Source: a virus. From it: a stretch of DNA of 64,000 bases. Position numbers and translations under genes: made by a program. Positions 2,190 through 17,270 of this stretch are shown piece after piece. The DNA is taken from positions 4,671 through 68,670 of IMG/VR virus record IMGVR_UViG_3300031344_000086. One strand, given 5' to 3'. Each line of letters begins with the position of its first letter. Position 1 is the stretch's first letter. The notes under the pieces are model-generated. The model was not told the origin of the DNA. It saw only the letters and a list, made by a program, of their open reading frames with translations, and searched no databases.

Positions 2190-2573
2190 ATGAAGAAAAT
2201 AAATAAAAAATACTCAAAAAAAGAAACATCAACATTAAAAAAAGAAACCTCACCAGAAATGGACTGGTCGTATTTTTCTCCGTTGGAGATTAAGATACAT
2301 GGAAATAATTTTGATAGAGCATTTAAATTATTCCGTTCGCTTGTGCAGGCTGACGGCGTGCTCGCAGTCTATAAGGAAAAACAAGGTTATGAGAAACCAA
2401 GCGTAAAAAAACGCCGTAAGCACGCAGAAACCATGCAGCGTTTATATGAAGAAAAAATCAAAGCCGAAAAAATTGCCTCCGGCGAATACGAAAAAGAAAA
2501 GATAAAGAAAGAAGCTAAGAAACAAAAACGTCGTCAAGAACGAGATGCAAAGAGGACAGAAGATGTCGGATAA
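2190..2573 (+). CDS. rpsU: phage-encoded ribosomal protein bS21 with charged extensions
   Basis: Core IKIHGNNFDRAFKLFRSLVQADGVLAVYKEKQGYEKPSVKKRRK matches the bS21 pattern (..ALRRFK....G.......YEKPS..R+RK). Confidence 0.8.
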   Translation: MKKINKKYSKKETSTLKKETSPEMDWSYFSPLEIKIHGNNFDRAFKLFRSLVQADGVLAVYKEKQGYEKPSVKKRRKHAETMQRLYEEKIKAEKIASGEYEKEKIKKEAKKQKRRQERDAKRTEDVG

Positions 2574-3090
2574 CGATAATTTTATACGAAACCCGAATCG
2601 TAAAAATAACCAAGAGCGTCATATTACATATGAGCCAGAACATATTCGTCTTGGAATTAAACCAGTTAAAATGGAAAGAAAAGTTGTTCCGTTCGTAAAA
2701 TCTTCAAAAAATGATACAGATTATGCTTCCATTGATGGAGCTATTTATGATGATAATGGAGATGAAATTAAAGTAGAGCCGGGGCACGTCATAGATAATA
2801 ATGATTATGTTTTCCCACCATCAAAAGCGCCAAACAGACCAGCTCAACAACGAGTGGTAGAAGAACAGCCAGATGTTTTGGATAAACAAAACGGAACGCC
2901 AAAAGTTGGTGAATATATACTTATGGTGGCTGGTAAGATCATTGATACCGGTTCATTAGAATCTATTGAAGCGACAGCAAGAGCAATTTTATATGGTGAA
3001 AACGAAAGTTTTCAAGAAGAAGTTAAAGTTGATGATATAGTAGTATTGAAACGCGTTGGAATTAATGTAGGTATATTTATAGATAGGTAA
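2563..3090 (+). CDS. hypothetical protein
   Basis: ORF in a tightly packed operon; start moved to MSDND, which follows a GAGG. Confidence 0.7.
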   Translation: MSDNDNFIRNPNRKNNQERHITYEPEHIRLGIKPVKMERKVVPFVKSSKNDTDYASIDGAIYDDNGDEIKVEPGHVIDNNDYVFPPSKAPNRPAQQRVVEEQPDVLDKQNGTPKVGEYILMVAGKIIDTGSLESIEATARAILYGENESFQEEVKVDDIVVLKRVGINVGIFIDR

Positions 3091-3093
3091 TAG

Positions 3094-3801
3094 ATGGCTA
3101 ATAATACAGAACAATTTAATCCTGATGGATATGCTCGCGAGCCTGAACCGCGTAAAGCATCAGATATTTTGCTTGCATTGGAAACCAAAGTAGAAACATT
3201 AACAAAGCTTGTATATAATCAAGATATGCTATTGAAACTTATTGCAGATCGAACGAATAAAATATATGCTTACATTGATGAATTACAAAAAGAATACAAG
3301 GAAGCTCAAAATCAAAAATCAGAAGAAGACGAAGAAGACCAAGAAGATTCGAGAGTTATTAATGTATCTAATGAGCATCAGATAACGGAAGTTAAAGAAC
3401 AAATTGGTCAACGTCGTATACAGCCACGAGCCGGTCCAAATGCCCCATCCCCGCCACAGCCGCCTATTTTAGCAGTTCCGAATCAGCAGCCAGCACCCAA
3501 GCCCCAACAGACGACTGGAAGCGATAAAAAGGTTCCGGTAATACAGAGAGTTTCCGATCAAACTGGAAAGGATATTTTTATGTCTGAAATTTTAATATCA
3601 GATGAAAATGGTAATGAAATTCATAAAACAAAAACCAATGCAGTTGGTAAATGGCAAGCTATGTTAAGACCGGGAAAATACATAGTTAAAATATCTAAAA
3701 CAGATACGGCAACGAAAAAAGTTTTACAGTCTACGCAAAATATAACTATTGGTAATTCAAGTTCAACATTGATACTTCCAGTAGTAATAATGAATAGATA
3801 A
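3094..3801 (+). CDS. hypothetical protein: coiled coil, Pro/Gln linker, C-terminal carboxypeptidase-regulatory-like beta-sandwich
   Basis: C-terminal VSDQTGKDI...TKTNAVGKW...LRPGKYIVKIS pattern. Confidence 0.55.
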   Translation: MANNTEQFNPDGYAREPEPRKASDILLALETKVETLTKLVYNQDMLLKLIADRTNKIYAYIDELQKEYKEAQNQKSEEDEEDQEDSRVINVSNEHQITEVKEQIGQRRIQPRAGPNAPSPPQPPILAVPNQQPAPKPQQTTGSDKKVPVIQRVSDQTGKDIFMSEILISDENGNEIHKTKTNAVGKWQAMLRPGKYIVKISKTDTATKKVLQSTQNITIGNSSSTLILPVVIMNR

Positions 3802-3803
3802 TT

Positions 3804-4136
3804 ATGGACGGCTACACCGAAGTAAGTGATGAAATTGTTGAAAAATATCTAAAAATGCAAGAACTTTTTGACCATCAGGTTAATTTAAATAAAGAATTGG
3901 TTGATATATCGAAAGAGTTAAGCGAAATACCGGAGATGCCAGAAAACTTAGATAAATGGATTGACAGCATCCCAAATGAAAAAAGTAAATTTAAGTTGAC
4001 AGATTACAATAGATTGTTTAAAGTTAGTAAGAAGTATAACCAGTTAGCAGAAAAACGTGAAGAAAACGCGCAAAAGATAAAAGTTCTTGTTATAGATAAT
4101 CTAATTGATAGAATAAATGAGATATTAGGAAAGTGA
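3804..4136 (+). CDS. hypothetical protein
   Basis: 110-aa helical ORF, operon-coupled. Confidence 0.65.
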   Translation: MDGYTEVSDEIVEKYLKMQELFDHQVNLNKELVDISKELSEIPEMPENLDKWIDSIPNEKSKFKLTDYNRLFKVSKKYNQLAEKREENAQKIKVLVIDNLIDRINEILGK

Positions 4137-4146
4137 TATATTTTGT

Positions 4147-4815
4147 ATGAAGTTTCAGGTTATTGTTTCAGATCCACCGTGGGGTGGATTTAAAGATAAA
4201 TTAAAAATGTCAGATGTTAAGCGTGGTGCCGAGGCAAATTACAACGGCACAATGTCTATTAAACACATATGTGATCTTCCAGTAAAACAAATCGCTGATC
4301 CGAATGGATGTCTTTTAGCATTGTGGGTTCCAAGTTCCCTACTACAAGATGGTATGGATACCATGAATGCTTGGGGGTTTAAACAGAAACAAACTTATGT
4401 ATGGTGTAAATCAAAAAAGGAAACTTCAATTTATGAGTTGCTTAATAAACAACTATATACGTTTGAGAAATTGCAAGATAAAGTTCAATATATTATAAAA
4501 AACTTATTGTCATTCGGGATGGGCAGATTATTTAGACAATCACACGAGATATGTCTCATTGGAACGAATAATAACGGTATATATGAACAATTAGAAAACC
4601 GATCTCAACGATCAGTTTCTTTTGCTACAAATCTAAAACATTCTCAGAAGCCAGAGGATTTACAAAACTCACTCGACCTAATGTTTCCAAAAGCCAATAA
4701 ATTAGAAATGTTTGCGAGACGTCAGCGAGAAGGTTGGATATGCGTTGGAAATCAAGCACCAGCAACAATGAATGAAGACATAAAGGTATCGTTAGAAAAA
4801 TTAATCAATGGATAA
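4147..4815 (+). CDS. MT-A70 family N6-adenine methyltransferase
   Basis: VIVSDPPW catalytic motif, LALWV, GMGRLFRQSHEICLIG, HSQKPE, KLEMFAR. Confidence 0.88.
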   Translation: MKFQVIVSDPPWGGFKDKLKMSDVKRGAEANYNGTMSIKHICDLPVKQIADPNGCLLALWVPSSLLQDGMDTMNAWGFKQKQTYVWCKSKKETSIYELLNKQLYTFEKLQDKVQYIIKNLLSFGMGRLFRQSHEICLIGTNNNGIYEQLENRSQRSVSFATNLKHSQKPEDLQNSLDLMFPKANKLEMFARRQREGWICVGNQAPATMNEDIKVSLEKLING

Positions 4816-5323
4816 TAAGAAAACATTACTACTAAATTATACTGATGAGATTATTGCGTTCATAAAAGAAAAGAAAGCACTACGATTAGTTTATAAAGGT
4901 AAAGCAGAAGTTATATCAGTATGGGACAATATAAAGTTTCGTGTTAGCAGTGGTGTTATGCATTTACCGGCGGTTATAAAGCTTAAATATTATGTTTTTA
5001 GGAAGTTTTCTAAAAGAGGAATAGTTTTTTCAAGGTTAAATGTATTAAAGAGAGATAAGTATAGTTGTCAGTATTGTGGGAAAGTCTTAAAATCTACACA
5101 AGCAACAATTGATCATGTTTTTCCTAAAACATTAGGCGGTCAATCAACATTCGAGAATTGTGTAGTTGCTTGTAAGAAATGTAATTCAAAAAAGAGCAGT
5201 AAAACATTAGAAGAATCAGGAATGAAATTAATTAGAGAACCAACAGTTCCATTGGAACATATACATTATATGTCCACCGAGGACGGTTGGCATAAGGATT
5301 GGGAAAAATATTTAAAAAAATAA
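4808..5323 (+). CDS. HNH endonuclease
   Basis: RDKYSCQYCG...TIDHVFPK..GG.STFENCVVACKKCN. Confidence 0.9.
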   Translation: MDNKKTLLLNYTDEIIAFIKEKKALRLVYKGKAEVISVWDNIKFRVSSGVMHLPAVIKLKYYVFRKFSKRGIVFSRLNVLKRDKYSCQYCGKVLKSTQATIDHVFPKTLGGQSTFENCVVACKKCNSKKSSKTLEESGMKLIREPTVPLEHIHYMSTEDGWHKDWEKYLKK

Positions 5324-5404
5324 GTAAAAACTTAACTTAATAAATCAATAACTCGTCATCAATATATAAGTTGATGGCAATTAAGCCTTCAAAGGAGGTG
5401 ATAC

Positions 5405-5485
5405 ATGGCTAAAGCAAAAAAGTCTACAAAGACTACAAAGAGTGCAAAAAAGAGTGCTAAAAAAGGTAAAAAATCCTCAAAATAA
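5405..5485 (+). CDS. 26-aa Lys/Ser/Ala-rich basic peptide (MAKAKKSTKTTKSAKKSAKKGKKSSK); not in the ORF track
   Basis: Near-perfect Shine-Dalgarno AAAGGAGGTG at 5391-5400; followed directly by an intrinsic terminator. Confidence 0.75.
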   Translation: MAKAKKSTKTTKSAKKSAKKGKKSSK

Positions 5486-5500
5486 TCACTCGGTAATATG

Positions 5501-5542
5501 AATAGGACACACTACTTAATAGTTTTGTGTCCTATTTTTTTT
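5501..5542 (+). terminator. Rho-independent terminator
   Basis: AATAGGACAC...GTGTCCTATT stem followed by a T run. Confidence 0.8.
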
Positions 5543-5572
5543 ATGTATAAAACAGCATTTATATAGGTATTT

Positions 5573-6364
5573 ATGAAAATGTATAAGGTATGTAGAGGAT
5601 GCGGATTAAATAAAGCAAAAGAAGAATATACACCATCGAAGTTTAAAAAAGGAAGGTGTAAAGATTGTGTTCGTAAACAAAAAGAAAAATGGATAATTGA
5701 AAATAAAGAAAAAATAGCATTATATTGTAGAAATTATAACCAGACTCATAAAGAAGAAATCAGAGAAAGAAAAAGAAAGCATTACCAAGATAACAAAGAA
5801 GAATCAAAGAAAAGAAAATATAAAATTTATAAAGATAATAAAGAGTCTATTTTAGAAAAGGCAAATAGGTATTATGAAGAACACAGGAGTGAAAGAATAG
5901 AGTATCAAATTAATTATATTGCAAATAAAAGAGAAACAGACCCTTCATTTAAATTTATGTTTAATGTATCCGCAATAATAAGATATATGTTAAAAAGTCA
6001 AGGTTCATCAAAACAAGGAAAATCTTGTAAAACCAAACTTCCATTCACAAGCGAAGAGTTATGCGCGCACTTAGAAAATCTTTTTACCCATCCTGATAGT
6101 CTTGGGCCAAATGGAGAAGTATGGATGACAAAAGAAAATCATGGTAATTACATAAAATCAAAATGGAATGATAAAGATCCTGCTACTTGGACTTGGCAAA
6201 TAGATCATATAAAACCTCATTCTGATTACCCGTATGATAGTATGGATCACCCTAATTTTCTAAAAGTATGGGATCTTTCTAACCTTAGACCGTTGTCCTC
6301 AAAGAGAAATCACGATGAAGGGGCTAACAGGACACGACACAAAACACCAAAGAAAAGAAGTTAA
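5573..6364 (+). CDS. free-standing HNH-type homing endonuclease
   Basis: N-terminal CxxC..CxxC, basic helical repeats, C-terminal WQIDHIKP...NLRPL...N; paralog of 14212-15096. Confidence 0.75.
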   Translation: MKMYKVCRGCGLNKAKEEYTPSKFKKGRCKDCVRKQKEKWIIENKEKIALYCRNYNQTHKEEIRERKRKHYQDNKEESKKRKYKIYKDNKESILEKANRYYEEHRSERIEYQINYIANKRETDPSFKFMFNVSAIIRYMLKSQGSSKQGKSCKTKLPFTSEELCAHLENLFTHPDSLGPNGEVWMTKENHGNYIKSKWNDKDPATWTWQIDHIKPHSDYPYDSMDHPNFLKVWDLSNLRPLSSKRNHDEGANRTRHKTPKKRS

Positions 6365-6372
6365 GTAAATAT

Positions 6373-6582
6373 ATGTTGTGTCCAAATTGTAGTAAATTAG
6401 CAATACTAAATACAGAAAGAACTTGTTTGCGTTGCAAGGGAAAAATACTTAATAATCTTTCTTGTATATGTGATCGATGTAGTACGGAACAGAATATGTG
6501 TTCTATATGTTTGAAACGTTTAACTAAGCCATTGGATATTAAAACACGCAGAGGCTGCAAGGCTTGCGGGGGCGGAAAATAA
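6373..6582 (+). CDS. small Cys-rich zinc-binding protein
   Basis: Five CxxC pairs in 69 aa. Confidence 0.65.
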   Translation: MLCPNCSKLAILNTERTCLRCKGKILNNLSCICDRCSTEQNMCSICLKRLTKPLDIKTRRGCKACGGGK

Positions 6583-6636
6583 AATTATTTTTCGTCGGTT
6601 GCCTGAATTAAAAAAGTTTCTTAAATTAGATGTAAG

Positions 6637-7170
6637 ATGATAATAACAGATGAAAAGATTTTACGACAATCATGTTCAAATGCTTCCGAAAACGAAGTGG
6701 GAGCCATTGTAGAGCAATTGGAGCGTGAATTAGAATATAGTGAGCGTATGGGAAGACCCGGTATTGGGCTATCCGCAATACAATGTAATATACATAAAAA
6801 TGTTGCTATCATTCGTATAGATGATAATCATAAAGTTAATTTAGTAAATTGTAAAATACAAAATAAATATGATCAATTCAAGTTTCTTGGAGAAGGGTGT
6901 TTGAGTTTTCCTAAATTAGTTGGTGATTCGATTCGCTATAATGAAGTGCATATAGTAGATAATTTAGTATATCCTCACGCCATGATATTGACTGGTATTA
7001 TGGCAGTTGTAGCACAGCATGAAATTGATCATTGGAATAATCGTCTTTTACCTGATTTTCTTTTACAAGAAGAAAAAAAGACAAAAGTAAGACCTAATGA
7101 TATATGTCCTTGTGGAAAAGTTGATCCATTAACTGGAAAAATAAAAAAATATAAGAGATGCTGTGGTTAA
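6637..7170 (+). CDS. def: peptide deformylase with C-terminal SEC-C-like metal-binding motif
   Basis: All three PDF motifs (GIGLSAIQ, EGCLS, QHEIDH); tail RPNDICPCG...KKYKRCCG. Confidence 0.92.
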   Translation: MIITDEKILRQSCSNASENEVGAIVEQLERELEYSERMGRPGIGLSAIQCNIHKNVAIIRIDDNHKVNLVNCKIQNKYDQFKFLGEGCLSFPKLVGDSIRYNEVHIVDNLVYPHAMILTGIMAVVAQHEIDHWNNRLLPDFLLQEEKKTKVRPNDICPCGKVDPLTGKIKKYKRCCG

Positions 7171-7221
7171 TGTATAGAGGGAAACTAAGTATCAAAATTT
7201 TAAAAAATAAAGGAAAATAAG

Positions 7222-7410
7222 ATGGATACAGGTAATAAAGAGATGGACTTGTTGGTAGCTGATTTAATTTTACGAGTAAATGCAATTGAGAAAATACTTA
7301 TAAATAAAAAACTATGTACAGCTGATGATTTAGTAAAAGAGATTAAAGAGATATCACAAAGTGTTATTAAATTTTTAGAAGAAAAACAAGTTAAACAAAC
7401 CAAAAACTAA
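7222..7410 (+). CDS. hypothetical protein
   Basis: 62-aa ORF with AAGGA RBS. Confidence 0.6.
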   Translation: MDTGNKEMDLLVADLILRVNAIEKILINKKLCTADDLVKEIKEISQSVIKFLEEKQVKQTKN

Positions 7411-7703
7411 TGCAGTTTTTAACTTCTGAAAATGATTTTAGTACAAATAAAAAAATAGTATTATGTTTTTATTCCTCGGAATTGTGCCATCCGATTGCCA
7501 GTATGTTGTTTTCAGTTGTAGAACAAATATCTAATCATTTAGATACATTATGCATCGATATATGTTATTTTGATAGTATAGGAAAAAGATTCGGAATAAT
7601 GGAGATCCCAACATTATTACTAATAGATAACGGAAAAGAATTAAAAAGAATTAATGGGATGATGGCAAAAACTGATATAGACTTATTATTGCAGGGACAC
7701 TGA
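7410..7703 (+). CDS. thioredoxin-fold protein lacking the canonical CxxC
   Basis: VLCFYS..., FGIMEIPTLLLIDNGKELKRING (cis-Pro motif). Confidence 0.7.
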   Translation: MQFLTSENDFSTNKKIVLCFYSSELCHPIASMLFSVVEQISNHLDTLCIDICYFDSIGKRFGIMEIPTLLLIDNGKELKRINGMMAKTDIDLLLQGH

Positions 7704-7731
7704 ACAAATGACAATAAAACGGAGTAAGAAA

Positions 7732-8037
7732 ATGACAACAGACAAAAAACACACAGTAGTCGTACAACCAAAAGCACCACCAACCGAAGGCGATAAAATC
7801 TGGGATGAGATCAAAGATAAAGAAGTTTTGATGTTCGCAATTCCGAATCAAATCGTATCACAGTATTGTGATCCACTTCCATTAGATCCAACAAAATGTT
7901 TCCTTAAATATAAGGTGTCAGCATTTATTCCAGCATTAGAAGCTGCAATTGGAGCAAATCAAAAAAACTCAAAATATAACCTTGAAGTTCAAAACGATAT
8001 AATCATCATTAGTCGAAATCATGTCCTCGGCAAATAA
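7732..8037 (+). CDS. hypothetical protein
   Basis: ORF with a GGAG RBS before MTTDKK. Confidence 0.65.
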   Translation: MTTDKKHTVVVQPKAPPTEGDKIWDEIKDKEVLMFAIPNQIVSQYCDPLPLDPTKCFLKYKVSAFIPALEAAIGANQKNSKYNLEVQNDIIIISRNHVLGK

Positions 8038-8470
8038 TCCAAAAAGAAAAGGATTGAAGGTTGATAATCAAAACTCATCAATCCCGCAACCAAAACCAAA
8101 TACCACTGCTGCTTTTAATGAGCAAGCAGATAAAGCATTCAATAAAATTGAAGAGTATAAACAGAGAAGTTTTGAGCTTGGTAGTAAATTCAAGGCTATA
8201 ATTGCAGATAAAAGGTTGGCAGCCAATAAAACTCAAATCAATAAAGATATTGAGATGGAGACACTGAGTAATTTAACAATTCTGGCTAATGATATTAATA
8301 GTGATGAAAATCAGCCAGAAGGGGCTGGCGGTGTTGCATTAGCAATGTTGATGATGAAGATACTACTTATTCAACGCGATACTATGAATGAAATTGATTA
8401 TAAGTTAGAACGACTCGAAAAGGCATTAAATGTGTTGGCTCTGGAAGTCAAAACAAATAAAGCAGTGTAA
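8021..8470 (+). CDS. hypothetical protein
   Basis: 149-aa operon-coupled ORF. Confidence 0.65.
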   Translation: MSSANNPKRKGLKVDNQNSSIPQPKPNTTAAFNEQADKAFNKIEEYKQRSFELGSKFKAIIADKRLAANKTQINKDIEMETLSNLTILANDINSDENQPEGAGGVALAMLMMKILLIQRDTMNEIDYKLERLEKALNVLALEVKTNKAV

Positions 8471-8477
8471 TGATCCT

Positions 8478-8642
8478 ATGATCACAAAAGAGAAGTTGCT
8501 TAATCTAATTGTAGAAGAAAAAGAACAATACAGTAATTATATATCATTATGTCAAAGATACAATATAACTCCGAACGAAATAGCAACAGCCCAACACAAA
8601 ACGAAGGTTGGGCTGCTTCAACAGATGATAGAGATGCTATAA
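8478..8642 (+). CDS. small hypothetical protein
   Basis: MITKEKLL... helical ORF; overlaps the 5' end of the next ORF. Confidence 0.45.
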   Translation: MITKEKLLNLIVEEKEQYSNYISLCQRYNITPNEIATAQHKTKVGLLQQMIEML

Positions 8643-9151
8643 AATTACTTATTCAGCGGGCTAATACCGCTGATTTAATGACTATTTTTAAGTCATATGG
8701 TATAAATTTTGATGGCTACGGTGGCAGACTAACTAAAATATGTTGTCCGTTTCCAAATCATAATGATAGAAGTCCATCATTTTTCTACTATGCTGAAACT
8801 AATTCATTTAATTGTTTCGGTTGCGGCGTCGGTGGCAAAGCAGTTCAATTAGTTTCTATAATGGAAGGTGTTAGTCAAGAACAGGCAGCTCAAAAAATAA
8901 TTGATAATTACTATATTGATAATAATGTAGTTATAGATAATAAAGATTATTTTGATCGTCAAACGGCTATTTTAGAGTTTTCATCAAAAATTAGAAATTT
9001 TATAAATGATAATGCTAATGATGATGTAGCAATTGAATATGCAGAAAAATTAACACTTGTATATGATACAATGATGGAAAAGCATACATTAGAAGTAGAT
9101 GGTTTAAAAAAATTAATAGATAAACTTGGAAAGAAGTTAGAAGTTTACTAA
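8549..9151 (+). CDS. stand-alone CHC2 zinc-finger protein (DnaG zinc-binding domain)
   Basis: CPFPNHNDRSPSFFYY....FNCFGCGVGG.AVQLV..MEG.S...AA; no TOPRIM domain follows. Confidence 0.85.
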   Translation: MSKIQYNSERNSNSPTQNEGWAASTDDRDAIKLLIQRANTADLMTIFKSYGINFDGYGGRLTKICCPFPNHNDRSPSFFYYAETNSFNCFGCGVGGKAVQLVSIMEGVSQEQAAQKIIDNYYIDNNVVIDNKDYFDRQTAILEFSSKIRNFINDNANDDVAIEYAEKLTLVYDTMMEKHTLEVDGLKKLIDKLGKKLEVY

Positions 9152-10338: not shown

Positions 10339-12491
10339 AACCATTAAAGCTAATCCTCAAAGATTTTTGTGGGCATAGTGATAGCGAAATTAACTTCGAT
10401 GATTTTAATTGTGCATTAATTACTGGTAAAATTCGTGGCAATGAACGTGGTAGTAATGGTAGTGGAAAGAGTACGATATTCGGTTCTATACGTTTTGTTT
10501 TATTTAATCAAACAGACTATTCATCATTAGACAAGGTAATTCGTAAAACAACGCAAAAATGCACAGTTTCGTTCGATTTTGTATCAAGTTTTGATAATCA
10601 AATATATCGTATTACTCGTTCCCGACACATTAAAACTGGCTCAGACGTTCGTCTTTTCTGTAAAGAAAATGATGAATGGAATGATTTAACTCAGCGAACA
10701 AATTCACAAACAGAACAAGAAATACAGAAAATAATAAAAATAAACTACAAGACATTTTGTAATTCTGCATTCTTCGGTCAAATGGATCTGACAGGATTGG
10801 CGTCATCAACGCCATCGGCTCGTAAGAAAATACTCAAAGAGATTTTAGATTTAAGTGTATATGGTAAGTATGAAAAAATAGCCAGCAAAAAACTATCAGA
10901 TTTAGTAAAAGAAATAGAAAAAAATAAAACTATTCTTTCAACAATTGGTTCACCTGAAAATGATATTCAACAATTTACCTTAGAGTTGTTGGAACTATCC
11001 ACGTTGGCTAATAATAAAAACAATTCAGCATTGGTCTTAAAAGACAAGTATGATACTGAAAGTAATAAATATCTTTCATTGACGAAAGAATTAGAAATAC
11101 TCGAAAAAGATACAAAAGAATACTTACTTAAGTATAAATCACTAGAAAATGATACCATTAAGTTTTTCAATATAGTAAAAGAATATGATAAAAAGGTATC
11201 ATCGATCAAAGACAATGGTACTTCTTTAATAAAAGAAGTAAAAAATCTTAAAGATGAGATATCTAAAATTAATCTTTCTGCGTTCCGTGCAAAAGATATA
11301 ATAAAACAGGATATAGAAAATCTATCAAAAGATATAATTGAAAATAAAGCATCAGTAAATTATTCTAATTCTAAGTTAATCGAATTAAAAATACCATTAC
11401 CATCGGGCGGTAAATGCAAACATTGCCGTCGCATTATAACGGAGGATGAGGTAAAATCTTGTCAAGAGGCAATTGATCAGGAAATAAAAGATTACACTAA
11501 TAAGATTAAGCTAGCACAAGAAAATATAGTATTATTAAATAACCAAGATAAAAAACTGAAAGAAGAATTACAGCAATCAGAAAATATCATAGTGTTGCTA
11601 ACAAGTAAAAATCAGCAGTTAGAAAATAAAGAAAAAGAGATAGAAACAAAGAAATCAGTTTTTGTTGAGTTCAATAATCTTTTAGAAAAAGCAAAAATAG
11701 AGCACGGTAATAAACAACAAGAGTTTGATTTATTTATATCAAATAAGCCACAAGATAATTCGGATATAACAAATAATCTAAAATTAGAAATATCAAATAT
11801 AAAAAATAAAATATCGTTAGTTTCACAAGAAATAGAGATAATAAATAAAGAGATATCTGGTATATCAAATAAATCAGCCGTTCTAAATCATAAGATAGAA
11901 CAAAGAACATTAGATATAGCAAAAATAAAAGAATATAAAGAGATTATATCGGTCTTAGAAAAGAAGTATACTATTCATAGTAAAGTGGTTTCAGCATTCG
12001 GTAGTAAAGGTATTCCTGCATTAATAACAAAAACTATCCTTGATGATTTTATGTATGAAACAAATCAATACATATCTAAATTACATCCTGGTATTGTTAT
12101 GCAGTTTATAATTGAAAAAGAGCGAACCGATGGCGACAAGGATGATACGCTCGATATTCAATTTTTAATGAATAACGACACGTTCGAGTATGAACAGCTC
12201 TCCGGCGCGCAGAAGCTAATTGTAGCATTAGCCCTGAGGCTTGGGTTGGCATCCGTGCTCACCAAGCGCCTTGGTGTGTCGATGCAGATGTTATTGATTG
12301 ACGAAGTAGATCAGTGTCTTGATGATATTAATGTTGAGTTTTTCGAAGAAGTGATAAAGAAACTAAGTCAAGAAATGAAAGTTCTTGTAATAACACATAA
12401 TAAAGACTTGAAAACAAAATTTAATCACGTTATAGTTGTAGAGCAGGATGAAAACTTCGTATCAACGGCAAAGGTAGCAAATGATTGGTAA
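10335..12491 (+). CDS. sbcC: SbcC/Rad50-like SMC ATPase
   Basis: Walker A NGSGKST, long coiled coil with CKHC zinc hook, LSGAQ signature, LLIDE Walker B, ITH. Confidence 0.92.
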   Translation: MKPLKLILKDFCGHSDSEINFDDFNCALITGKIRGNERGSNGSGKSTIFGSIRFVLFNQTDYSSLDKVIRKTTQKCTVSFDFVSSFDNQIYRITRSRHIKTGSDVRLFCKENDEWNDLTQRTNSQTEQEIQKIIKINYKTFCNSAFFGQMDLTGLASSTPSARKKILKEILDLSVYGKYEKIASKKLSDLVKEIEKNKTILSTIGSPENDIQQFTLELLELSTLANNKNNSALVLKDKYDTESNKYLSLTKELEILEKDTKEYLLKYKSLENDTIKFFNIVKEYDKKVSSIKDNGTSLIKEVKNLKDEISKINLSAFRAKDIIKQDIENLSKDIIENKASVNYSNSKLIELKIPLPSGGKCKHCRRIITEDEVKSCQEAIDQEIKDYTNKIKLAQENIVLLNNQDKKLKEELQQSENIIVLLTSKNQQLENKEKEIETKKSVFVEFNNLLEKAKIEHGNKQQEFDLFISNKPQDNSDITNNLKLEISNIKNKISLVSQEIEIINKEISGISNKSAVLNHKIEQRTLDIAKIKEYKEIISVLEKKYTIHSKVVSAFGSKGIPALITKTILDDFMYETNQYISKLHPGIVMQFIIEKERTDGDKDDTLDIQFLMNNDTFEYEQLSGAQKLIVALALRLGLASVLTKRLGVSMQMLLIDEVDQCLDDINVEFFEEVIKKLSQEMKVLVITHNKDLKTKFNHVIVVEQDENFVSTAKVANDW

Positions 12492-13113
12492 TCGTCAATT
12501 GAGAATTGGGCTAAGCGGAAAAGCGAAAACCGGAAAAAATACAGTTGCTGATCTAATAGTTACACATTTAGATTTAAATCGAGATGAATATAGAATAAGA
12601 GCATTCGCAGATCCAATGAAGGAAATTATGAAAATTATGTTTCCGGGTGCTGATAATGAATGCTTGTATGGAGCAAGTGAATTAAGGGAAAAGGTAATAT
12701 CAAACAAATTCCTTAATAGAGATTTTCATAGAAAACCCTTAACATATCGAAGCGGGCTAACAGATATAGGTAAGTACGCGCGTGAGTATAATGAAAATAT
12801 ATGGATATATAATTTAGATTATGATTTAAATAATTGGGTACCTAATATAGATCGTACATCAAGCAGTAGATATAAGTCAGCATATATAGTTTCTGATTGT
12901 AGATTTATTAATGAATTTAATTACTTACGTGAGCAAGGGTTTTACCTAATTAGGATTTTACGAAAAGGAACTAATAGTGGAGTTGATGTTTCAGAAGTAG
13001 AACAAGAACAAATACCAAATGAAAGTTTTGATAAAGTAATACATAATGATTATTCGATTGATGTGTTGTCAGAAGAGGTTAGGCAGATAATGAATGAATT
13101 GCGTATAAAATAG
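12481..13113 (+). CDS. deoxynucleoside monophosphate kinase (T4 gp1-like)
   Basis: IGLSGKAKTGKNT P-loop, AFADPMK, IVSDCRFINE. Confidence 0.85.
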   Translation: MIGNRQLRIGLSGKAKTGKNTVADLIVTHLDLNRDEYRIRAFADPMKEIMKIMFPGADNECLYGASELREKVISNKFLNRDFHRKPLTYRSGLTDIGKYAREYNENIWIYNLDYDLNNWVPNIDRTSSSRYKSAYIVSDCRFINEFNYLREQGFYLIRILRKGTNSGVDVSEVEQEQIPNESFDKVIHNDYSIDVLSEEVRQIMNELRIK

Positions 13114-13125
13114 TATTATACTACA

Positions 13126-14148
13126 ATGTCAGTCATTAATATTACTATAACGGCAAGCACAACTCAAACTATTCCAGGCATTCCTGATACTATATCTCTT
13201 AGTACAAATGAGCCTGCCACCATTTTTTTCAGTCTTGATGGTTCAATACCAAATACATTTTCGCCAGTTTATACGGTTCCAATTATTATGCCACAAACAT
13301 TATTAAATGTTGTGTTAAATGTATTCGCTACAAACGGTGTAGATAATTCGGCAATCATAACACAAACATATTCAACAACACCAGATCAATTACCAGCATA
13401 TGCCGTTGGAGCGAGAGTATCACGTTCCGCTACAACAAATCTGAATAATGCAAGCTCAACAAACAGCTTATATCCGTTCGGAACAGATGGTCAAAATACT
13501 AATTTTCAATATACAGGAACTCAAAATGCTGGCGTGACGGTTTATAATGAATCACAGCCTGCAACACCATCAGGTTTCGATGGAAGCGGTAATCCAGCTG
13601 GTTTCGTAAATAATCCTTCATCAGTCAATAATAAGTTTAAACAAATATATTCTACTACAAATGCAGAAGGTGAAGTCAAAATTGGTGTTGGTAATCTTCC
13701 AGCTAAAACAAGAATAATTGGTAAATCTGCTCCAATGGAATATACACAGGAGCAGAGCAGCACAAGTGATAAAATCTTTAATCCAAGAGCGCTGGTTGTT
13801 TACCAAGATACAACCACAGAAGACCCAACAAATCCAGTAATAATAAATAGAGGTGATTTTAGTTTAGAAAACACAGAGATAGTAAGAGACGGCGTAATGC
13901 TTATGAATACCGCATTAGATAGTCCACCAACACAAGGATCATTCGTTAGAAGAGAGTTTAATCCACGAACTCAAATGTGGACTTGCTATTATAGAGATAA
14001 TACGGTTAATCGTTGGATTATATCTTCGTTCCCTCATCAGCCAACCAAACAGGATGTTGGAGCATTGTATAACATGGTGTTTCCTCGCGAACACGGCGCT
14101 GGCATGGTGTTCAAATGGGTATGGAATCAGAGAGTAGTTTTACATTAA
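13126..14148 (+). CDS. hypothetical Thr/Asn-rich protein with N-terminal Fn3-associated/chitobiase-C-like domain, possibly a virion protein
   Basis: ISLSTNEPATIFFSLDGSIP....YT.PI motif. Confidence 0.55.
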   Translation: MSVINITITASTTQTIPGIPDTISLSTNEPATIFFSLDGSIPNTFSPVYTVPIIMPQTLLNVVLNVFATNGVDNSAIITQTYSTTPDQLPAYAVGARVSRSATTNLNNASSTNSLYPFGTDGQNTNFQYTGTQNAGVTVYNESQPATPSGFDGSGNPAGFVNNPSSVNNKFKQIYSTTNAEGEVKIGVGNLPAKTRIIGKSAPMEYTQEQSSTSDKIFNPRALVVYQDTTTEDPTNPVIINRGDFSLENTEIVRDGVMLMNTALDSPPTQGSFVRREFNPRTQMWTCYYRDNTVNRWIISSFPHQPTKQDVGALYNMVFPREHGAGMVFKWVWNQRVVLH

Positions 14149-14211
14149 AAATTGTTGTTTTTTACCGTAAAAATATGTATAAAGTGATATATTTATACGT
14201 AGGAGATTTAC

Positions 14212-15096
14212 GTGAAAAAGACAGTTAAAATATGCACAAAATGTAAACAAGAAAAGCCAGAAGAAGAATGGCAACCATCACAATTTAAAAGATCATCTGG
14301 ATTATGTCGTATGTGTAAAAACGAATTAGATCGTGAGTATAGATTAAATAATTTAAATACTGTTAGGGAAAAAGATAAAAAAAGATATAAAAAAAGAAAA
14401 GAAGATTTTGTAAATACATACGAAAATAAAATATGCACAAATTGTGGAGAAGATAAAAAAGAACAAGACTATTCGGTATCAGAATATATACAAATAAGTT
14501 CAATTTGTAAGATATGTGTTGCCTATTCTACGGAAGAATATAGAAACAAAAATAGAGAGATGTTGAGACAAAAAGCGAAAGAATACAGAGATTCTTTTTC
14601 GGAAGAGGATAGGTCTAATAAGTTAGAATATGATAAGTTGTATTATCAAAATAATAAACAGGAAATAAATAAGCGACATGCAGAATATGTATGTGAAAGA
14701 ATAAAAATAGATCCAATATTTAGGTTTAGACTGCTTGTATCTGGTAGTATTCGTAAAGTATTTAAAGAACGCGGAGTATCTAAAAATAAATCTTCTTGTT
14801 GGGCAAAACTTCCATATACACCAGAGGAGTTAATTCAGCATATTGAATTATTATTCGAGCCGTGGATGAATTGGGAAAATCACGGAGATTACATATTCGA
14901 AACTTGGGATGATAAAGATCCATTAACATGGAAGTGGCAATTAGATCATAAAGATCCTCATTCAGATTTTCCATACGACAGCCTTGACCATCATAATTTT
15001 CAATTAGCGTGGGCGCTATCTAACTTGCGTCCGTATTCAGCCAAACAGAATATCATTGATGGCTCCCGCCGTGCTAGGCATGCTGAAAAGAAATAA
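14212..15096 (+). CDS. free-standing HNH-type homing endonuclease
   Basis: Two N-terminal Zn-finger units, WQLDHKDPHS...NLRPY...N; paralog of 5573-6364; GTG start after AGGAG. Confidence 0.75.
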   Translation: MKKTVKICTKCKQEKPEEEWQPSQFKRSSGLCRMCKNELDREYRLNNLNTVREKDKKRYKKRKEDFVNTYENKICTNCGEDKKEQDYSVSEYIQISSICKICVAYSTEEYRNKNREMLRQKAKEYRDSFSEEDRSNKLEYDKLYYQNNKQEINKRHAEYVCERIKIDPIFRFRLLVSGSIRKVFKERGVSKNKSSCWAKLPYTPEELIQHIELLFEPWMNWENHGDYIFETWDDKDPLTWKWQLDHKDPHSDFPYDSLDHHNFQLAWALSNLRPYSAKQNIIDGSRRARHAEKK

Positions 15097-15131
15097 AATT
15101 AATATCTTACAGCTTACGCTATAAAATCTGC

Positions 15132-15142
15132 TGATATATAAT
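15132..15142 (+). promoter_or_regulatory. representative TGATATA(T) promoter box overlapping a sigma70-like -10
   Basis: Also at 4134, 14185, 28330 (GATATATA), 31232, 34669, 42964 and 55562, each within about 60 bp upstream of a start codon. Confidence 0.55.
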
Positions 15143-15148
15143 ACTAGA

Positions 15149-15979
15149 ATGTCAGTAGAACAAACAGAAAATATAATTAAAAAATTAAAACTCAGTGTTT
15201 CAAAAGTCAAGACGTTTTCGCAGTGTAAGAAAAAATACTACTATACATACGAAATGAAGCTTCCTCGTAAAACTTGGGCGTTTCATACGCTTGGTAAGTT
15301 CGTTCACTTAGTACTTGAGGAGTTTCATAAATCATTTTTGAATGGTACGGATGAGCCGCTCCATGTCGTAATGGGTCGGGCATACAGAGTTGCTATGAAA
15401 GAGTTCGGAAAATCAATGTCCGAAGATAGTAAAAAAGAAGCGTTTGCTATGATAGATGCTTATTTACAAAAAATAACTAATGAAAAGCATACATTAAAAG
15501 ATGTAATCGCAGTAGAGAAAAACTTCAGTTTTCCTATAACAGATCATATTATATTGAACGGTATGATTGATAAAATACAGATTGATCATGATGGTATATT
15601 AAATGTTGGAGATTACAAGACAACAAGGGATAAAAAATATCTTTTAAATGATTGGCTTCAATTACAGACATATGCATACGTGCTTGCGACCGAAGATTCT
15701 AGTATAAAACAAATACGAGGATCGTATATATTAGTTCGCCATGGGTTCGAGCGTATCGAAAAAGTTTTTAATATAGATGAGATTATGCAAATAAAAGATC
15801 AATTCGAGTCTTATGCAAAAGACATAGAGGACGAACAATTATGGGAAGCAACTCCCACACGATTGTGTGGCTACTGCGATCATTTAGCGATATGTAAAGA
15901 GGGATCGGAGTTTATGAACAAAATTAATAGAAACACTAATACATTTAGTGATACAAATCATGGTGAAGTGAAATGGTAA
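15149..15979 (+). CDS. PD-(D/E)XK nuclease (RecB/AddB/Cas4-like)
   Basis: LSVSKVKTFSQC, GKFVHLVLE, GMIDKI...DYKT, QLQTY, C-terminal CGYCDHLAIC. Confidence 0.85.
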   Translation: MSVEQTENIIKKLKLSVSKVKTFSQCKKKYYYTYEMKLPRKTWAFHTLGKFVHLVLEEFHKSFLNGTDEPLHVVMGRAYRVAMKEFGKSMSEDSKKEAFAMIDAYLQKITNEKHTLKDVIAVEKNFSFPITDHIILNGMIDKIQIDHDGILNVGDYKTTRDKKYLLNDWLQLQTYAYVLATEDSSIKQIRGSYILVRHGFERIEKVFNIDEIMQIKDQFESYAKDIEDEQLWEATPTRLCGYCDHLAICKEGSEFMNKINRNTNTFSDTNHGEVKW

Positions 15980-16001
15980 TTTATAAAGGAAAGATATAAA
16001 A

Positions 16002-17243
16002 ATGCAAATCCAATTACAAGAAACTGAATACTGCAAAATCCTCGTTCAAGTTGAAGCCGATCAAAATGAAATCAACGAAAAACGAAATGAAGTAATAACT
16101 AAATTTAAGGGATATAAAGTTCCGGGCTTCCGTAAAAATAAGGCTACACCGGAAGCAATAAAAACTCACTTCAAAAAAGAAATACAAAATGCCCTAACAC
16201 AGGAATTGGCAGAGGCTGCGGTTCAACATACATTATTCGAAAAAGATGTAAAGCCATTCGGTCGCCCCCAATTTACACAAATAAAATTAGATAACAATAA
16301 GTTTAGTTGTGAGTTTTCGCTTCACAAACAACCAGATTTTGAGCTAAAAACATATAAAGATTTTGAGATCCCAAAACCAGCAGTCGGTATATCAGCCGAC
16401 GAACTTGGAGCAAAAATGCTTCAAGAACTACGAGATCGTAATGGTATTACAACAGCATACGGTGAAGATGACGTTGTTCAAATGGGTGATAATGTTGTCA
16501 TTGACTATCAGGCATTCAAAGATGGAGTTGCTATTGAAAGTTTCAAAAATGCTGGCGAATTGGTTAGCGTTGGTAAAATTGATATTCCGGGCTTCAGCGA
16601 GAATATACTTGGTATGAAAGCCGGGGAAACAAGAGAGTTTGAGCTATTATTCGATGCTAAAATTAAACCAGAGTATAATAATCAGATACTTAAGTTTGAA
16701 GTAAAATTACATATGGGTAGTAAAGTATCACCAGCCGCATTGGATGATGACTTGGCTAAGTCGGTTGGGTTAGAGTCATTGAATGCATTGATGGAAAATG
16801 TTAATACTATGGCTGGAAACCGCGTAAAAGAATTAGAGAAAGCGCAAGTTGTTGATCAAATTGCAAAACGATTGGTGGAGAGTCATGACTTCCTCATTCC
16901 TGATTGGATATCAGTAGCAGAAGCTCAAATAAATGCGCGTAATAATAGAAAAGACTGGAATACAATATCAGATCAAGAAAAAGAGGTTTTCATAGCCTCG
17001 GCTGAAAATAATATTAAGTTGTCGCTCGTGCTTGATAAAATTAGGGGAGTAGAGTTGGACGCGCAACTTGGTCAAGAAGAATTATTGAAAATAGCCCAAG
17101 CTAATCTACAACAACACACACAAGAGCCTCAAAAGGTGTTTGAGGAATTATATAAAAATGGTCAGTTGGGATTATTTTTAAATAGAATAAAAGATGAATT
17201 TACGCTTGAATTTTTAAGTAAAAATTGTAAAATTATTGAATAA
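16002..17243 (+). CDS. tig: trigger factor
   Basis: Ribosome-binding signature VPGFRKNKA; FKBP domain (GDNVVIDY..., IPGFSENILGMKAGE); helical C domain; 413 aa. Confidence 0.9.
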   Translation: MQIQLQETEYCKILVQVEADQNEINEKRNEVITKFKGYKVPGFRKNKATPEAIKTHFKKEIQNALTQELAEAAVQHTLFEKDVKPFGRPQFTQIKLDNNKFSCEFSLHKQPDFELKTYKDFEIPKPAVGISADELGAKMLQELRDRNGITTAYGEDDVVQMGDNVVIDYQAFKDGVAIESFKNAGELVSVGKIDIPGFSENILGMKAGETREFELLFDAKIKPEYNNQILKFEVKLHMGSKVSPAALDDDLAKSVGLESLNALMENVNTMAGNRVKELEKAQVVDQIAKRLVESHDFLIPDWISVAEAQINARNNRKDWNTISDQEKEVFIASAENNIKLSLVLDKIRGVELDAQLGQEELLKIAQANLQQHTQEPQKVFEELYKNGQLGLFLNRIKDEFTLEFLSKNCKIIE

Positions 17244-17270
17244 ACAAATAGAAAGAAATAGGTAAATAAA

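What the first reader, a model, noticed from the sequence alone, without database searches (positions are those of the whole stretch)
2190..17243. Phage-encoded ribosome and nascent-chain toolkit: bS21, peptide deformylase and trigger factor (with DnaJ downstream)
Seen: bS21 (2190), PDF (6637) and a full three-domain trigger factor (16002) in one module, with DnaJ (28981) and a second J-protein (38074). Established: PDF and trigger factor act together at the ribosomal tunnel exit, bS21 acts at initiation, and phage bS21 and PDF are known. Trigger factor is, to my knowledge, rarely described in phages. Inference: the phage controls translation from initiation through co-translational maturation and folding, perhaps for its very large head proteins.
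Basis: partly seen in the sequence, partly recalled or inferred. Interest (0 to 1): 0.7.

Follow-up and report, generated by a model that had tools for sequence, protein, structure and literature searches.

The report
Huge-phage nascent-protein maturation gene set
A fragment of a giant soil phage carries intact copies of a ribosomal protein, the deformylase and trigger-factor chaperone that meet new proteins at the ribosome exit, and a DnaJ co-chaperone, and its whole phage lineage keeps them, so these viruses seem to bring their own protein-maturation equipment.

Summary
All five genes sit at the stated coordinates and match their families: bS21, peptide deformylase (PDF), a three-domain trigger factor (TF), a class A DnaJ and a small J-protein. 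The contig is phage. It has TerL and portal genes and is a 16%-complete fragment of a roughly 400-450 kb genome. A contig from a separate run confirms the arrangement. "One module" is too strong, because the genes are scattered among DNA-replication genes on one strand. Order and spacing are nevertheless conserved. All 20 TF-bearing large relatives searched have bS21, PDF, TF and DnaJ in the same order. Five of six relatives chosen by TerL alone have the trio, and the sixth is truncated. All 11 near-complete genomes have it. dN/dS is 0.07-0.13. New points: the PDF ends in a SecA-type SEC-C zinc motif (20 of 20), unlike described viral PDFs. Near-complete relatives also encode type I methionine aminopeptidase but no DnaK, GrpE, GroEL or SecB. 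I found no paper on a phage TF or a PDF-SEC-C fusion. This scan had already reported the same gene set on eight other phage fragments. Ribosome binding, expression and host remain untested. Verdict: a new variant of the known huge-phage translation genes, of moderate to high interest.

The parts
2163..2189 (+). bS21 leader: an AAGGAG hexamer, then a short GC-rich hairpin, then the ATG
   Evidence: Sequence read. Single-sequence folds give a 6-7 bp hairpin (-6.3 to -9.5 kcal/mol) in the window and in 3 close relatives, 4 of the 20 bS21 genes looked at. Comparative support is weak: 3 consensus pairs, 1 of them compensatory. Its function is unknown.
2190..2573 (+). Ribosomal protein bS21 homolog, 127 aa. 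The core domain is aa 34-85, with a 33-aa basic N-terminal extension and a K/E-rich C-terminal tail.
   Evidence: Pfam PF01165 50.7 bits. TIGR00030 43.2 against 28.95. PHROG 21469. N-terminal extensions in 20 of 20 aligned orthologs. dN/dS 0.07-0.10.
6637..7170 (+). Peptide deformylase with all three catalytic motifs (read by eye) and a C-terminal SEC-C-type Cys-rich tail
   Evidence: PF01327 79.9 bits. Motifs and tail present in 20 of 20 clade PDFs. dN/dS 0.09-0.13.
7090..7167 (+). SEC-C-like metal-binding tail of the PDF (last 26 aa), interrupted by a 7-residue insertion
   Evidence: PF02810 scores only 16 bits on the tail alone, below the 20.4 cut-off. Five of 5 uninterrupted orthologs score 33-37 bits, and 2 of 2 other insertion variants do not score. 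Atlas: 12 PDF/SEC-C clusters; in the three shown, 95-97% of members with a taxon record are viral.
16002..17243 (+). Trigger factor, 413 aa: N-terminal ribosome-binding domain, FKBP-type PPIase domain and C-terminal domain
   Evidence: Three Pfam domains above their cut-offs. TIGR00115 192.1 against 180.2. phmmer to E. coli TF 1w26 E 3.1e-17 over aa 12-393. Model TM 0.69-0.70 to 1w26 and 2vrh. G42 and R44 of the docking loop invariant in 25 clade members. dN/dS 0.08-0.12.
28981..29952 (+). Class A DnaJ: J domain with HPD, a G/F-rich linker, four CxxC repeats and a DnaJ C-terminal domain
   Evidence: PF00226 48 bits and PF01556 79.7 bits, both above cut-off. PF00684 27.2, below its 32.7 cut-off. 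HPD and the CxxC repeats read. A 310-350 aa DnaJ lies downstream of TF in 20 of 20 relatives.
38074..38586 (+). Small J-domain protein (170 aa) with HPD and a charged C-terminal half
   Evidence: PF00226 53 bits. HPD read. A second J-domain match over the cut-off occurs in only 4 of 20 relatives: G001, G005, G010 and G020.
40677..42941 (+). Large terminase (context: shows that this is a phage and defines the lineage)
   Evidence: PF05876. PHROG 675 at 2e-47. A TerL profile finds 140 IMG/VR relatives.
42990..44849 (+). Portal protein (context)
   Evidence: PHROG 16240 at 3e-48.

Best explanation
The window is a piece of an uncultured huge phage of about 400-450 kb from rhizosphere soil. Its bS21, PDF with SEC-C tail, trigger factor and class A DnaJ are old, vertically inherited core genes of that phage lineage. 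Complete relatives also have a type I methionine aminopeptidase elsewhere in the genome.

Most likely these proteins work on the host's ribosomes during infection.
- bS21 enters the 30S subunit.
- PDF removes the formyl group from the nascent chain. Its SecA-type zinc tail probably tethers it near the tunnel exit, in place of the ribosome-binding helix of bacterial PDFs.
- TF docks at the tunnel exit through its conserved N-domain loop and shields the emerging chain.
- DnaJ hands clients to the host DnaK.

The net effect would be to keep up or raise the capacity for co-translational processing and folding while the phage makes very large amounts of protein and host gene expression declines.

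Shown here: gene identity, intactness, conserved key residues, lineage-wide conservation and purifying selection. Inferred: ribosome binding, the role of the tail, and the benefit to the phage.
For: Identity and fold.

Functional residues:
- The TF docking loop keeps G-F-R-K, aligned to the E. coli loop. G42 and R44 are invariant in 25 clade TFs.
- The PDF catalytic motifs are present in 20 of 20.
- HPD is present in both J-proteins.

Conservation:
- TF family: 884 proteins at E<=1e-5 and 147 representative clusters at E<=1e-30.
- 53 IMG/VR loci, 21 of them on contigs over 190 kb.
- PDF, bS21 and DnaJ each in 20 of 20 TF-bearing records searched. The order bS21-PDF-TF-DnaJ holds in all 20 by coordinates.
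- Unbiased test on 6 TerL-defined contigs: TF, PDF and bS21 each in 5 of 6. The miss is a 47%-complete contig cut off about 11 kb from TerL.
- Near-complete genomes with the trio: 8 of 8 plus 3 of 3.

Selection: dN/dS 0.07-0.13 in 9 of 9 pairwise comparisons.

Completing the set: Peptidase_M24 in 5 of 5 near-complete genomes, and 3 of 3 fetched pass type I MetAP TIGR00500. HSP70, GrpE, Cpn60 and SecB are each in 0 of 5, so the J-proteins must use a host Hsp70.

Tail:
- SEC-C is above the Pfam cut-off in 5 of 5 uninterrupted orthologs.
- The SecA metal-binding domain binds 70S ribosomes. Its crosslinking products cross-reacted with anti-uL23 antibody, and binding depends on the metal-coordinating cysteines (PMC6620043, passages read).

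Not an artefact: a 24,301-bp contig from a run not flagged as the source covers window 1265-19999 with 21 differences.
Against: - Nothing shows that any of these proteins binds a ribosome or is expressed.
- The host is unknown.
- The genes are interspersed with replication and recombination genes rather than forming a translation operon. That fits other roles just as well.
- In the window's TF the recalled signature GFRxGxxP is not exact: the second Gly is Asn and the Pro is displaced by one residue.
- PDF (77.8 against 103.95) and DnaJ (190.8 against 377.2) fall below the NCBIfam equivalog cut-offs.
- The window's own SEC-C tail is below the Pfam cut-off because of its insertion.
- dS is about 0.4-1.9, partly near saturation.
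- The 20-of-20 co-occurrence was measured on records selected for having TF. The TerL-based control has only 6 records.
Confidence: 0.62

Rival explanations
1. Selective take-over, the first reader's 'control'. The phage proteins replace their host counterparts to build phage-specialised ribosomes. bS21 with its extensions would bias initiation towards phage mRNAs, and the phage's exit-site factors would favour phage nascent chains over host ones.
For: - All 20 bS21 orthologs carry an N-terminal extension.
- Chen 2022 proposes phage bS21 substitution into Bacteroidetes ribosomes (PMC9723584, passages read).
- The bS21 gene has an unusual leader of SD plus hairpin.
Against: - I know of no feature of PDF, MAP, TF or DnaJ that would tell phage chains from host chains.
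- The phage ORFs show only a weak, ordinary AGGA signal: 23 of 68 against about 5% background.
- No experiment or expression data bears on it.
- In Chen 2022 bS21 sits among late structural genes, whereas here it sits in a replication block.
Confidence: 0.15
2. Off-ribosome chaperones. TF and the J-proteins mainly serve replication or virion assembly and not co-translational folding. For example, DnaJ with host DnaK could remodel replication complexes, and TF could act as a holdase or assembly factor for large phage proteins.
For: - The genes lie inside a replication and recombination block: primase parts, SbcCD-like pair, DnaE, RecA, RuvC.
- The DnaJ start overlaps the end of the RuvC-like gene.
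- Recalled, from no call: lambda replication needs host DnaJ and DnaK, and T. maritima TF assists assembly (the title of PDB entry 3gty mentions 'folding and assembly activities').
Against: - The TF N-domain docking loop is the most conserved short motif of the N-domain across the clade. That is hard to explain if ribosome docking were dispensable.
- PDF and MetAP act only on nascent N-termini, so at least part of the set is ribosome-linked.
Confidence: 0.13
3. Insurance or counter-defence. The phage copies replace host factors that are lost, degraded or inhibited during infection or by the environment. Examples would be natural PDF inhibitors in soil, or host abortive-infection systems that hit translation.
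For: - Accessory PDFs on mobile elements reduce susceptibility to the PDF inhibitor actinonin, and such inhibitors may be widespread (PMC12690207, passages read).
- The phage comes from rhizosphere metagenomes.
Against: - Nothing specific in the sequence points to inhibitor resistance.
- It does not explain TF, bS21 and DnaJ travelling together.
- It overlaps largely with the best explanation.
Confidence: 0.06
4. Artefact: the contig is bacterial, chimeric, or a prophage flanked by host genes, so the 'phage' genes are really host genes.
For: IMG/VR labels 7 of the 26 related records searched as 'provirus'. One relative's TF is filed in NCBI under a Chitinophagales MAG.
Against: - All ORFs are on one strand, and TerL and portal lie on the same contig.
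- Two relatives have direct terminal repeats at 428 and 452 kb.
- The gene order is the same in 20 of 20 relatives.
- A contig assembled from a separate run spans the region.
- The closest cellular TFs found are only 24-26% identical.
- There are no tig-clpP-clpX style bacterial neighbours.
Confidence: 0.01

Closest known systems
Translation-related genes of huge phages (Al-Shayeb et al. 2020, PMC7162821; passages read)
   Same: Huge phages encoding bS21 with N-terminal extensions and peptide deformylase, interpreted as interception or support of host translation.
   Different: That paper's held main text has 0 occurrences of 'trigger factor' and of 'chaperon', and does not mention a SEC-C tail. 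An earlier agent's note assigns this lineage to the paper's 'Judaphage' clade. I could not check that, because the word is absent from the held text.
Bacterial trigger factor (Tig; structures 1w26 and 2vrh of E. coli)
   Same: Three-domain architecture and full-length fold, at TM 0.69-0.70. It passes the NCBIfam tig equivalog. The docking-loop core G-F-R-K is conserved.
   Different: - Only about 22% identical to E. coli TF.
- It belongs to a separate clade found on viral contigs.
- Two clade-specific cysteines, C11 and C103, are absent from the two cellular TFs compared.
- There are no clpP-clpX neighbours.
- In the window the second Gly of the signature is Asn.
Described viral peptide deformylases (Vp16 PDF, cyanophage S-SSM7 PDF; Grzela 2017 PMC5591237, Frank 2013 PMC3660681)
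   Same: A phage-encoded PDF with the three catalytic motifs intact. PHROG 2890.
   Different: Grzela 2017 (passages read) states that all viral PDFs identified then have shorter C-termini and lack the ribosome-interacting region. This clade instead has a linker plus a SEC-C zinc motif in 20 of 20. For Frank 2013 I saw only the search listing and its abstract start.
SecA C-terminal metal-binding domain (SEC-C, PF02810; Jamshad 2019, PMC6620043)
   Same: A CxC...C(C/H) motif with basic residues at the extreme C-terminus, after a flexible linker. In SecA it binds SecB and 70S ribosomes, with crosslinking products that cross-react with anti-uL23.
   Different: Here it is attached to a deformylase and not to a translocation ATPase. 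The window's copy has a 7-residue insertion and falls below the Pfam cut-off. No SecB is encoded in 5 of 5 complete relatives.
bS21-encoding phages of freshwater Bacteroidetes (Chen 2022, PMC9723584; passages read)
   Same: A phage bS21 proposed to enter host ribosomes. The paper also mentions phage chaperones and Clp protease.
   Different: Those genomes reach 331 kb and have bS21 on the reverse strand among structural genes. The text has 0 occurrences of 'trigger factor' or 'deformylase'. Here bS21 lies in a replication block on the same strand as everything else.

Membership tests
Trigger factor (Tig, TIGR00115) | Score above the curated equivalog cut-off | tested here: met
   192.1 bits against 180.2.
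Trigger factor (Tig, TIGR00115) | Three domains in the order N (ribosome-binding), FKBP-type PPIase, C | tested here: met
   Trigger_N aa 1-138, FKBP_C aa 159-236 and Trigger_C aa 260-405, all above their Pfam cut-offs. The model matches full-length 1w26 and 2vrh at TM 0.69-0.70.
Trigger factor (Tig, TIGR00115) | Ribosome-docking signature GFRxGxxP in the N-domain loop (motif recalled from the literature) | tested here: inconclusive
   The window has G-F-R-K-N-K-A-T-P. The G-F-R-K core is kept, the second Gly is Asn and the Pro is displaced by one. The clade consensus is PGFRKGKA, with G42 and R44 invariant in 25 of 25.
Trigger factor (Tig, TIGR00115) | Binding to uL23 at the tunnel exit | not testable with these tools
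   The host is unknown, and no ribosome-scale modelling or biochemistry is available.
Peptide deformylase (PF01327) | Pfam gathering score and the three metal/catalytic motifs (GxGxAAxQ, EGCLS, HExxH; motif names recalled) | tested here: met
   79.9 bits against 22.8. The motifs were read and are present in 20 of 20 clade PDFs.
Peptide deformylase (TIGR00079 equivalog) | Score above the curated equivalog cut-off | tested here: not met
   77.8 bits against 103.95. It is a divergent PDF, so I file it under the Pfam family only.
SEC-C motif (PF02810) | Pfam gathering score | tested here: not met
   Window tail 16 bits, whole protein 10.5, against 20.4. Orthologs without the insertion score 33-37 bits in 5 of 5. 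The window copy is therefore a derived form of a true SEC-C tail.
SEC-C motif (PF02810) | Four metal ligands, CxC ... C(C/H), at the C-terminus | tested here: met
   Present in 20 of 20 aligned PDF tails, with spacing lengthened by 7 residues in 5 of 20, including the window. Metal binding itself was not tested.
Ribosomal protein bS21 (PF01165, TIGR00030) | Scores above both curated cut-offs | tested here: met
   50.7 against 27 and 43.2 against 28.95. Incorporation into 30S subunits was not tested.
Class A (type I) DnaJ | J domain with HPD, G/F-rich region, four CxxCxGxG repeats and a C-terminal substrate-binding domain | tested here: met
   J domain 48 bits and DnaJ_C 79.7 bits, both above cut-off. 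HPD, the G/F stretch and four CxxC repeats were read. The zinc-finger Pfam score of 27.2 is below its 32.7 cut-off, and two repeats lack the final Gly.
DnaJ (TIGR02349 equivalog) | Score above the curated equivalog cut-off | tested here: not met
   190.8 against 377.2. The protein is DnaJ-like in architecture but is not filed as the bacterial equivalog.
Type I methionine aminopeptidase (TIGR00500), in relatives only | Score above the curated equivalog cut-off | tested here: met
   204.4, 209.9 and 215.1 against 171.35 for 3 of 3 copies fetched, from G001, G020 and G023. The gene is not in the window or in its 68.7 kb record, as far as that record is held.
'Judaphage' clade of huge phages (a lead from earlier notes) | Placement in the TerL/MCP tree of Al-Shayeb 2020 | not tested
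   The word does not occur in the held text. No reference sequences of that clade were available to me.

The most novel reading that the evidence does not exclude
This lineage of huge phages encodes its own complete ribosomal tunnel-exit station. A deformylase would be tethered beside uL23 by a SecA-type zinc domain. With it come a methionine aminopeptidase and a trigger factor bearing clade-specific cysteines, plus an extended bS21 on the small subunit. Infected cells would then run phage-modified ribosomes that couple altered initiation to phage-controlled co-translational maturation. The SEC-C tail would be a portable ribosome-docking module that evolution has moved from SecA onto a nascent-chain enzyme.
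Probability: 0.15. Interest if true: 0.85.

Novelty: new variant of a known kind. Interest (0 to 1): 0.6.

Why it matters
Phage-encoded bS21 and PDF are known. A virus that also keeps trigger factor, methionine aminopeptidase and DnaJ would extend viral interference with translation from initiation and tRNA supply to the first steps in the life of a protein. The PDF-SEC-C fusion is a natural experiment on how exit-site factors are tethered. Bacterial PDF uses a C-terminal helix and described viral PDFs lack any tether, whereas this clade uses the module that SecA uses to touch the ribosome. That makes a direct test possible: does SEC-C alone target a protein to the tunnel exit? The clade is large: 147 TF clusters at 50% identity, and 53 TF-bearing viral contigs in one collection. 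It is found in soil, so any effect on host proteostasis could be ecologically widespread.

Tried and rejected
- **Expression:** The look-up of sequencing runs listed no RNA holder, so nothing can be said about expression.
- **Host:**
  - The SD analysis is not decisive: AGGA upstream of 23 of 68 ORFs, AGGAG within 20 nt of 2 of 68, GGAGG 0 of 68.
  - The window has no tRNA genes.
  - The Atlas neighbours of TF are bacterial TFs of many phyla with no clear donor.
  - A Chitinophagales MAG label on one distant relative is only a binning hint.
- **Cellular relatives of the phage-type TF:**
  - The first genome-contig scan gave 43 pattern matches and 0 confirmed relatives.
  - The second gave 2 distant bacterial TFs at 24-26% identity.
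  - These scans depend on short patterns and do not prove absence.
  - I built no rooted TF tree, because I had only two named cellular outgroups.
- **Cys pair as an obligate disulfide or metal pair:** not supported. Both cysteines are present in 25 of 25 core-clade TFs, but they occur separately in most of the 16 distant representatives aligned. The tools give no model coordinates, so I could not measure their distance.
- **bS21 leader hairpin:** RNAalifold found only 3 pairs, 1 of them compensatory, from 4 sequences. That is too little to claim a structure.
- **GenBank phage TF hits:**
  - There are 22 records, all below 60% identity.
  - The one annotated record I inspected is bacterial DNA, and another is flagged UNVERIFIED_ORG without annotation.
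  - I did not inspect the other 20.
- **'Judaphage' and 'related to Bacillus phage G'** (earlier agents' notes): not verifiable here.
- **Supplements:** closed. The gene tables of Al-Shayeb 2020 and Chen 2022 may list trigger factor or chaperones that I could not see.

Full report
**What is there**

The window has ORFs almost only on the + strand and a GC content of about 33%.
- bS21 (2190-2573): Pfam 50.7 bits, TIGR00030 43.2 against 28.95.
- Peptide deformylase (6637-7170): Pfam 79.9 bits.
- Trigger factor (16002-17243): Trigger_N, FKBP_C and Trigger_C all above their cut-offs, and the NCBIfam 'tig' equivalog at 192.1 against 180.2.
- A DnaJ with J, zinc-finger and C-terminal domains (28981-29952).
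- A J-domain-only protein (38074-38586).

An AlphaFold model of the TF built on 25 clade sequences is confident, with mean pLDDT 87.4. It superposes on full-length E. coli TF, including the ribosome-bound form, at TM 0.69-0.70 over 426 columns. Its N-domain matches the isolated ribosome-binding domain at TM 0.79-0.82.

**Is it a phage?**

Yes.
- TerL (40677-42941) and portal (42990-44849) lie on the same strand.
- The window is bases 4671-68670 of a 68,670-bp IMG/VR virus record that CheckV rates at 16% complete. That implies a genome of roughly 400 kb or more.
- The closest relative lies on a 406,470-bp contig rated 95% complete.
- Two more distant relatives have direct terminal repeats, at 451,956 and 428,320 bp.
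- The stretch is held nearly word for word in many 2019 rhizosphere metagenome runs. Nine of them are not flagged as the possible source and hold at least 0.91 of the sampled words. They may all belong to one campaign.
- In one of those runs a single 24,301-bp contig covers window 1265-19999 with 21 differences. So bS21, PDF and TF are joined in a separate run's own assembly.

**Module or not?**

The three genes are separated by about 4 kb and 9 kb of DNA-metabolism genes:
- MT-A70 methylase;
- HNH endonuclease;
- primase zinc ribbon;
- SbcD- and SbcC-like proteins;
- dNMP kinase;
- PD-(D/E)XK nuclease.

A topoisomerase lies upstream. An RNase T-family exonuclease, DnaE, RecA, RuvC and a primase core lie downstream. 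So this is not a translation operon. It is a set of genes embedded in a replication block.

The arrangement is nevertheless stable. Among IMG/VR contigs that carry a TF of this type there are 53 loci, 21 of them on contigs over 190 kb. I asked for 22 of the large records and 20 were held. PDF, bS21 and a DnaJ of 310-350 aa were each found in 20 of 20. By coordinates the order bS21, PDF, TF, DnaJ holds in all 20.

Those records were chosen for having TF, so I ran a control. A TerL profile found 140 relatives. Six large TerL-defined contigs were not in the TF list. TF, PDF and bS21 were each present in 5 of those 6. The exception is 47% complete, and its TerL lies about 11 kb from the contig end. 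In the window the genes lie 25-38 kb upstream of TerL, so in that contig they would fall off the end. Counting only records at least 90% complete, 8 of 8 and 3 of 3 have the trio.

**Are they functional?**

- **Selection.** Nei-Gojobori dN/dS between the window and its two closest relatives is 0.07-0.13 for TF, PDF and bS21 in 9 of 9 pairs. dS is about 0.4-1.9, so partly near saturation.
- **TF.** The N-domain loop that aligns with the E. coli docking loop keeps G-F-R-K. G42 and R44 are invariant in 25 clade members, with consensus PGFRKGKA. In the window the second Gly is Asn. The name and role of this signature are recalled from the literature. The PDB entry title 'Ribosome binding of E. coli Trigger Factor mutant F44L' is in line with that.
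- **PDF.** It has the three catalytic motifs in 20 of 20 clade members.
- **J-proteins.** Both have HPD. The larger has a G/F-rich stretch and four CxxC repeats.

- **(a) The PDF tail.**
  - Every PDF of the clade (20 of 20) ends in a SEC-C-type Cys motif after a short basic linker.
  - Pfam SEC-C is above its cut-off in 5 of 5 uninterrupted versions, at 33-37 bits against 20.4.
  - The window's copy and four others have a 7-residue insertion, and the insertion variants tested do not score: the window at 16 bits, and 2 of 2 others unscored.
  - About half of the closest PDF homologs in the large protein collection carry a precomputed SEC-C domain, 59 of the 120 listed by my count.
  - The ESM Atlas has 12 clusters labelled deformylase/SEC-C. 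In the three shown, 95-97% of the members with a taxon record are viral.
  - Grzela 2017 states that all viral PDFs identified then have shortened C-termini lacking the ribosome-interacting region.
  - Jamshad 2019 shows that the SecA metal-binding domain binds 70S ribosomes. Crosslinking products cross-reacted with anti-uL23 antibody, and binding depends on the metal-coordinating cysteines. The domain also binds SecB.
  - The phage relatives encode no SecB, 0 of 5.
  - The simplest reading is that the tail is a ribosome tether. This is an inference.
- **(b) Methionine aminopeptidase.** Five of 5 near-complete relatives encode a Peptidase_M24 protein. Three of 3 fetched copies pass the type I methionine aminopeptidase equivalog. 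The lineage therefore holds PDF, MetAP and TF, the three factors that first meet a bacterial nascent chain.
- **(c) No Hsp70 system or chaperonin.** HSP70, GrpE and Cpn60 are each absent from 5 of 5. The J-proteins must work with a host Hsp70.

**How separate is the phage TF?**

- The exhaustive representative search gives 7,158 hits at E<=0.001 but only 147 at E<=1e-30.
- The window's TF is 31-90% identical to the 120 best members of its family, many of them on contigs of 240-470 kb. It is about 22% identical to E. coli TF.
- Pattern scans of one genome per prokaryote species found no phage-type TF. They found only two cellular TFs, at 24-26% identity.
- These scans use short patterns and cannot prove absence.
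- PHROGs already holds a TF-like family, 26774, labelled 'unknown function'. So such genes have been catalogued but not named.

**Literature**

- Five searches combining 'trigger factor' with phage terms found no paper that describes a phage or viral trigger factor.
- One search for 'SEC-C' with 'peptide deformylase' found two papers. Neither, by its title and abstract start, concerns such a fusion.
- Al-Shayeb 2020 discusses huge-phage bS21 extensions and PDF but not TF or chaperones in its main text.
- Chen 2022 describes other bS21 phages and mentions chaperones and Clp protease without TF or PDF.
- The library covers open-access papers and bioRxiv only, and supplements were closed.

**Earlier notes of this scan**

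After I had derived the points above, a look-up showed eight earlier reports of the same gene set on other phage fragments. Those reports include the SEC-C tail and MetAP. They agree with my results. I treat them as leads and not as evidence. Their 'Judaphage' and 'phage G' assignments I could not test.

**Verdict**

'One module', 'control of translation' and a link to large head proteins are not shown.

The best explanation is capacity support for co-translational maturation on host ribosomes, at confidence 0.62. The rivals are:
- selective take-over (0.15);
- off-ribosome roles in replication or assembly (0.13);
- insurance against inhibitors or defence (0.06);
- artefact (0.01).

I rate it a new variant of a known kind, because of the TF and the SEC-C-tailed PDF, with interest 0.6.

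Noticed in passing
window 40896-41306 (TerL aa 74-210): TerL carries a 137-aa insertion exactly inside the Walker A P-loop. It ends in His-Asn followed by Thr, as inteins do. It is absent from 4 of the 5 aligned relatives. One relative has a larger insert at the same site with an endonuclease-like part, and another has a similar insert at a different TerL site. Its first residue is not Cys or Ser. From memory, this pattern resembles class 3 inteins. Not tested.
   Followed up: partly
window 16032-16034 and 16308-16310 (TF C11 and C103): Two cysteines in the TF N-domain are invariant in 25 of 25 core-clade TFs and absent from the 2 cellular TFs compared. Most of the 16 distant representatives have only one of them. 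In the model, C11 lies in the turn before strand 2 and C103 in strand 4. The function is unknown.
   Followed up: partly
window 2163-2189: The bS21 gene has the only full AAGGAG seen in the window. It lies 21 nt before the ATG, with a GC-rich hairpin in between. The same layout, with different stem sequences, occurs in 3 close relatives. Most of the other 16 bS21 genes instead share an AAGGTTAAAA-like upstream motif.
   Followed up: partly
window 37160-38077: A nucleotidyltransferase with a PolyA_pol head domain, the fold of CCA-adding enzymes. Its stop overlaps the start of the small J-protein gene. It may be another translation-related gene.
   Followed up: no
window 50332-54114: A 1,260-aa protein in which only residues about 103-213 match a head-maturation protease PHROG. 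The region 52-54 kb has the highest GC of the window, 0.41 against about 0.33.
   Followed up: no
L185 (GenBank CAKLQH020000005.1, 'Acinetobacter phage MD-2021a'): This 219,710-bp contig filed as a phage carries tig-clpP-clpX with leuA and a TonB-dependent receptor beside them. At this locus it looks like bacterial chromosomal DNA in a phage collection.
   Followed up: partly
G022 (IMG/VR record holding L099), about 345.9-346.3 kb: One relative has a second, weaker PDF match at 41.8 bits, far from the conserved one.
   Followed up: no
G003, G007, G009-G012, G022 (IMG/VR records): Seven of the 26 related records are labelled 'provirus' by IMG/VR although they are 267-481 kb and up to 100% complete. 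The label may be triggered by their many bacterial-type genes.
   Followed up: no
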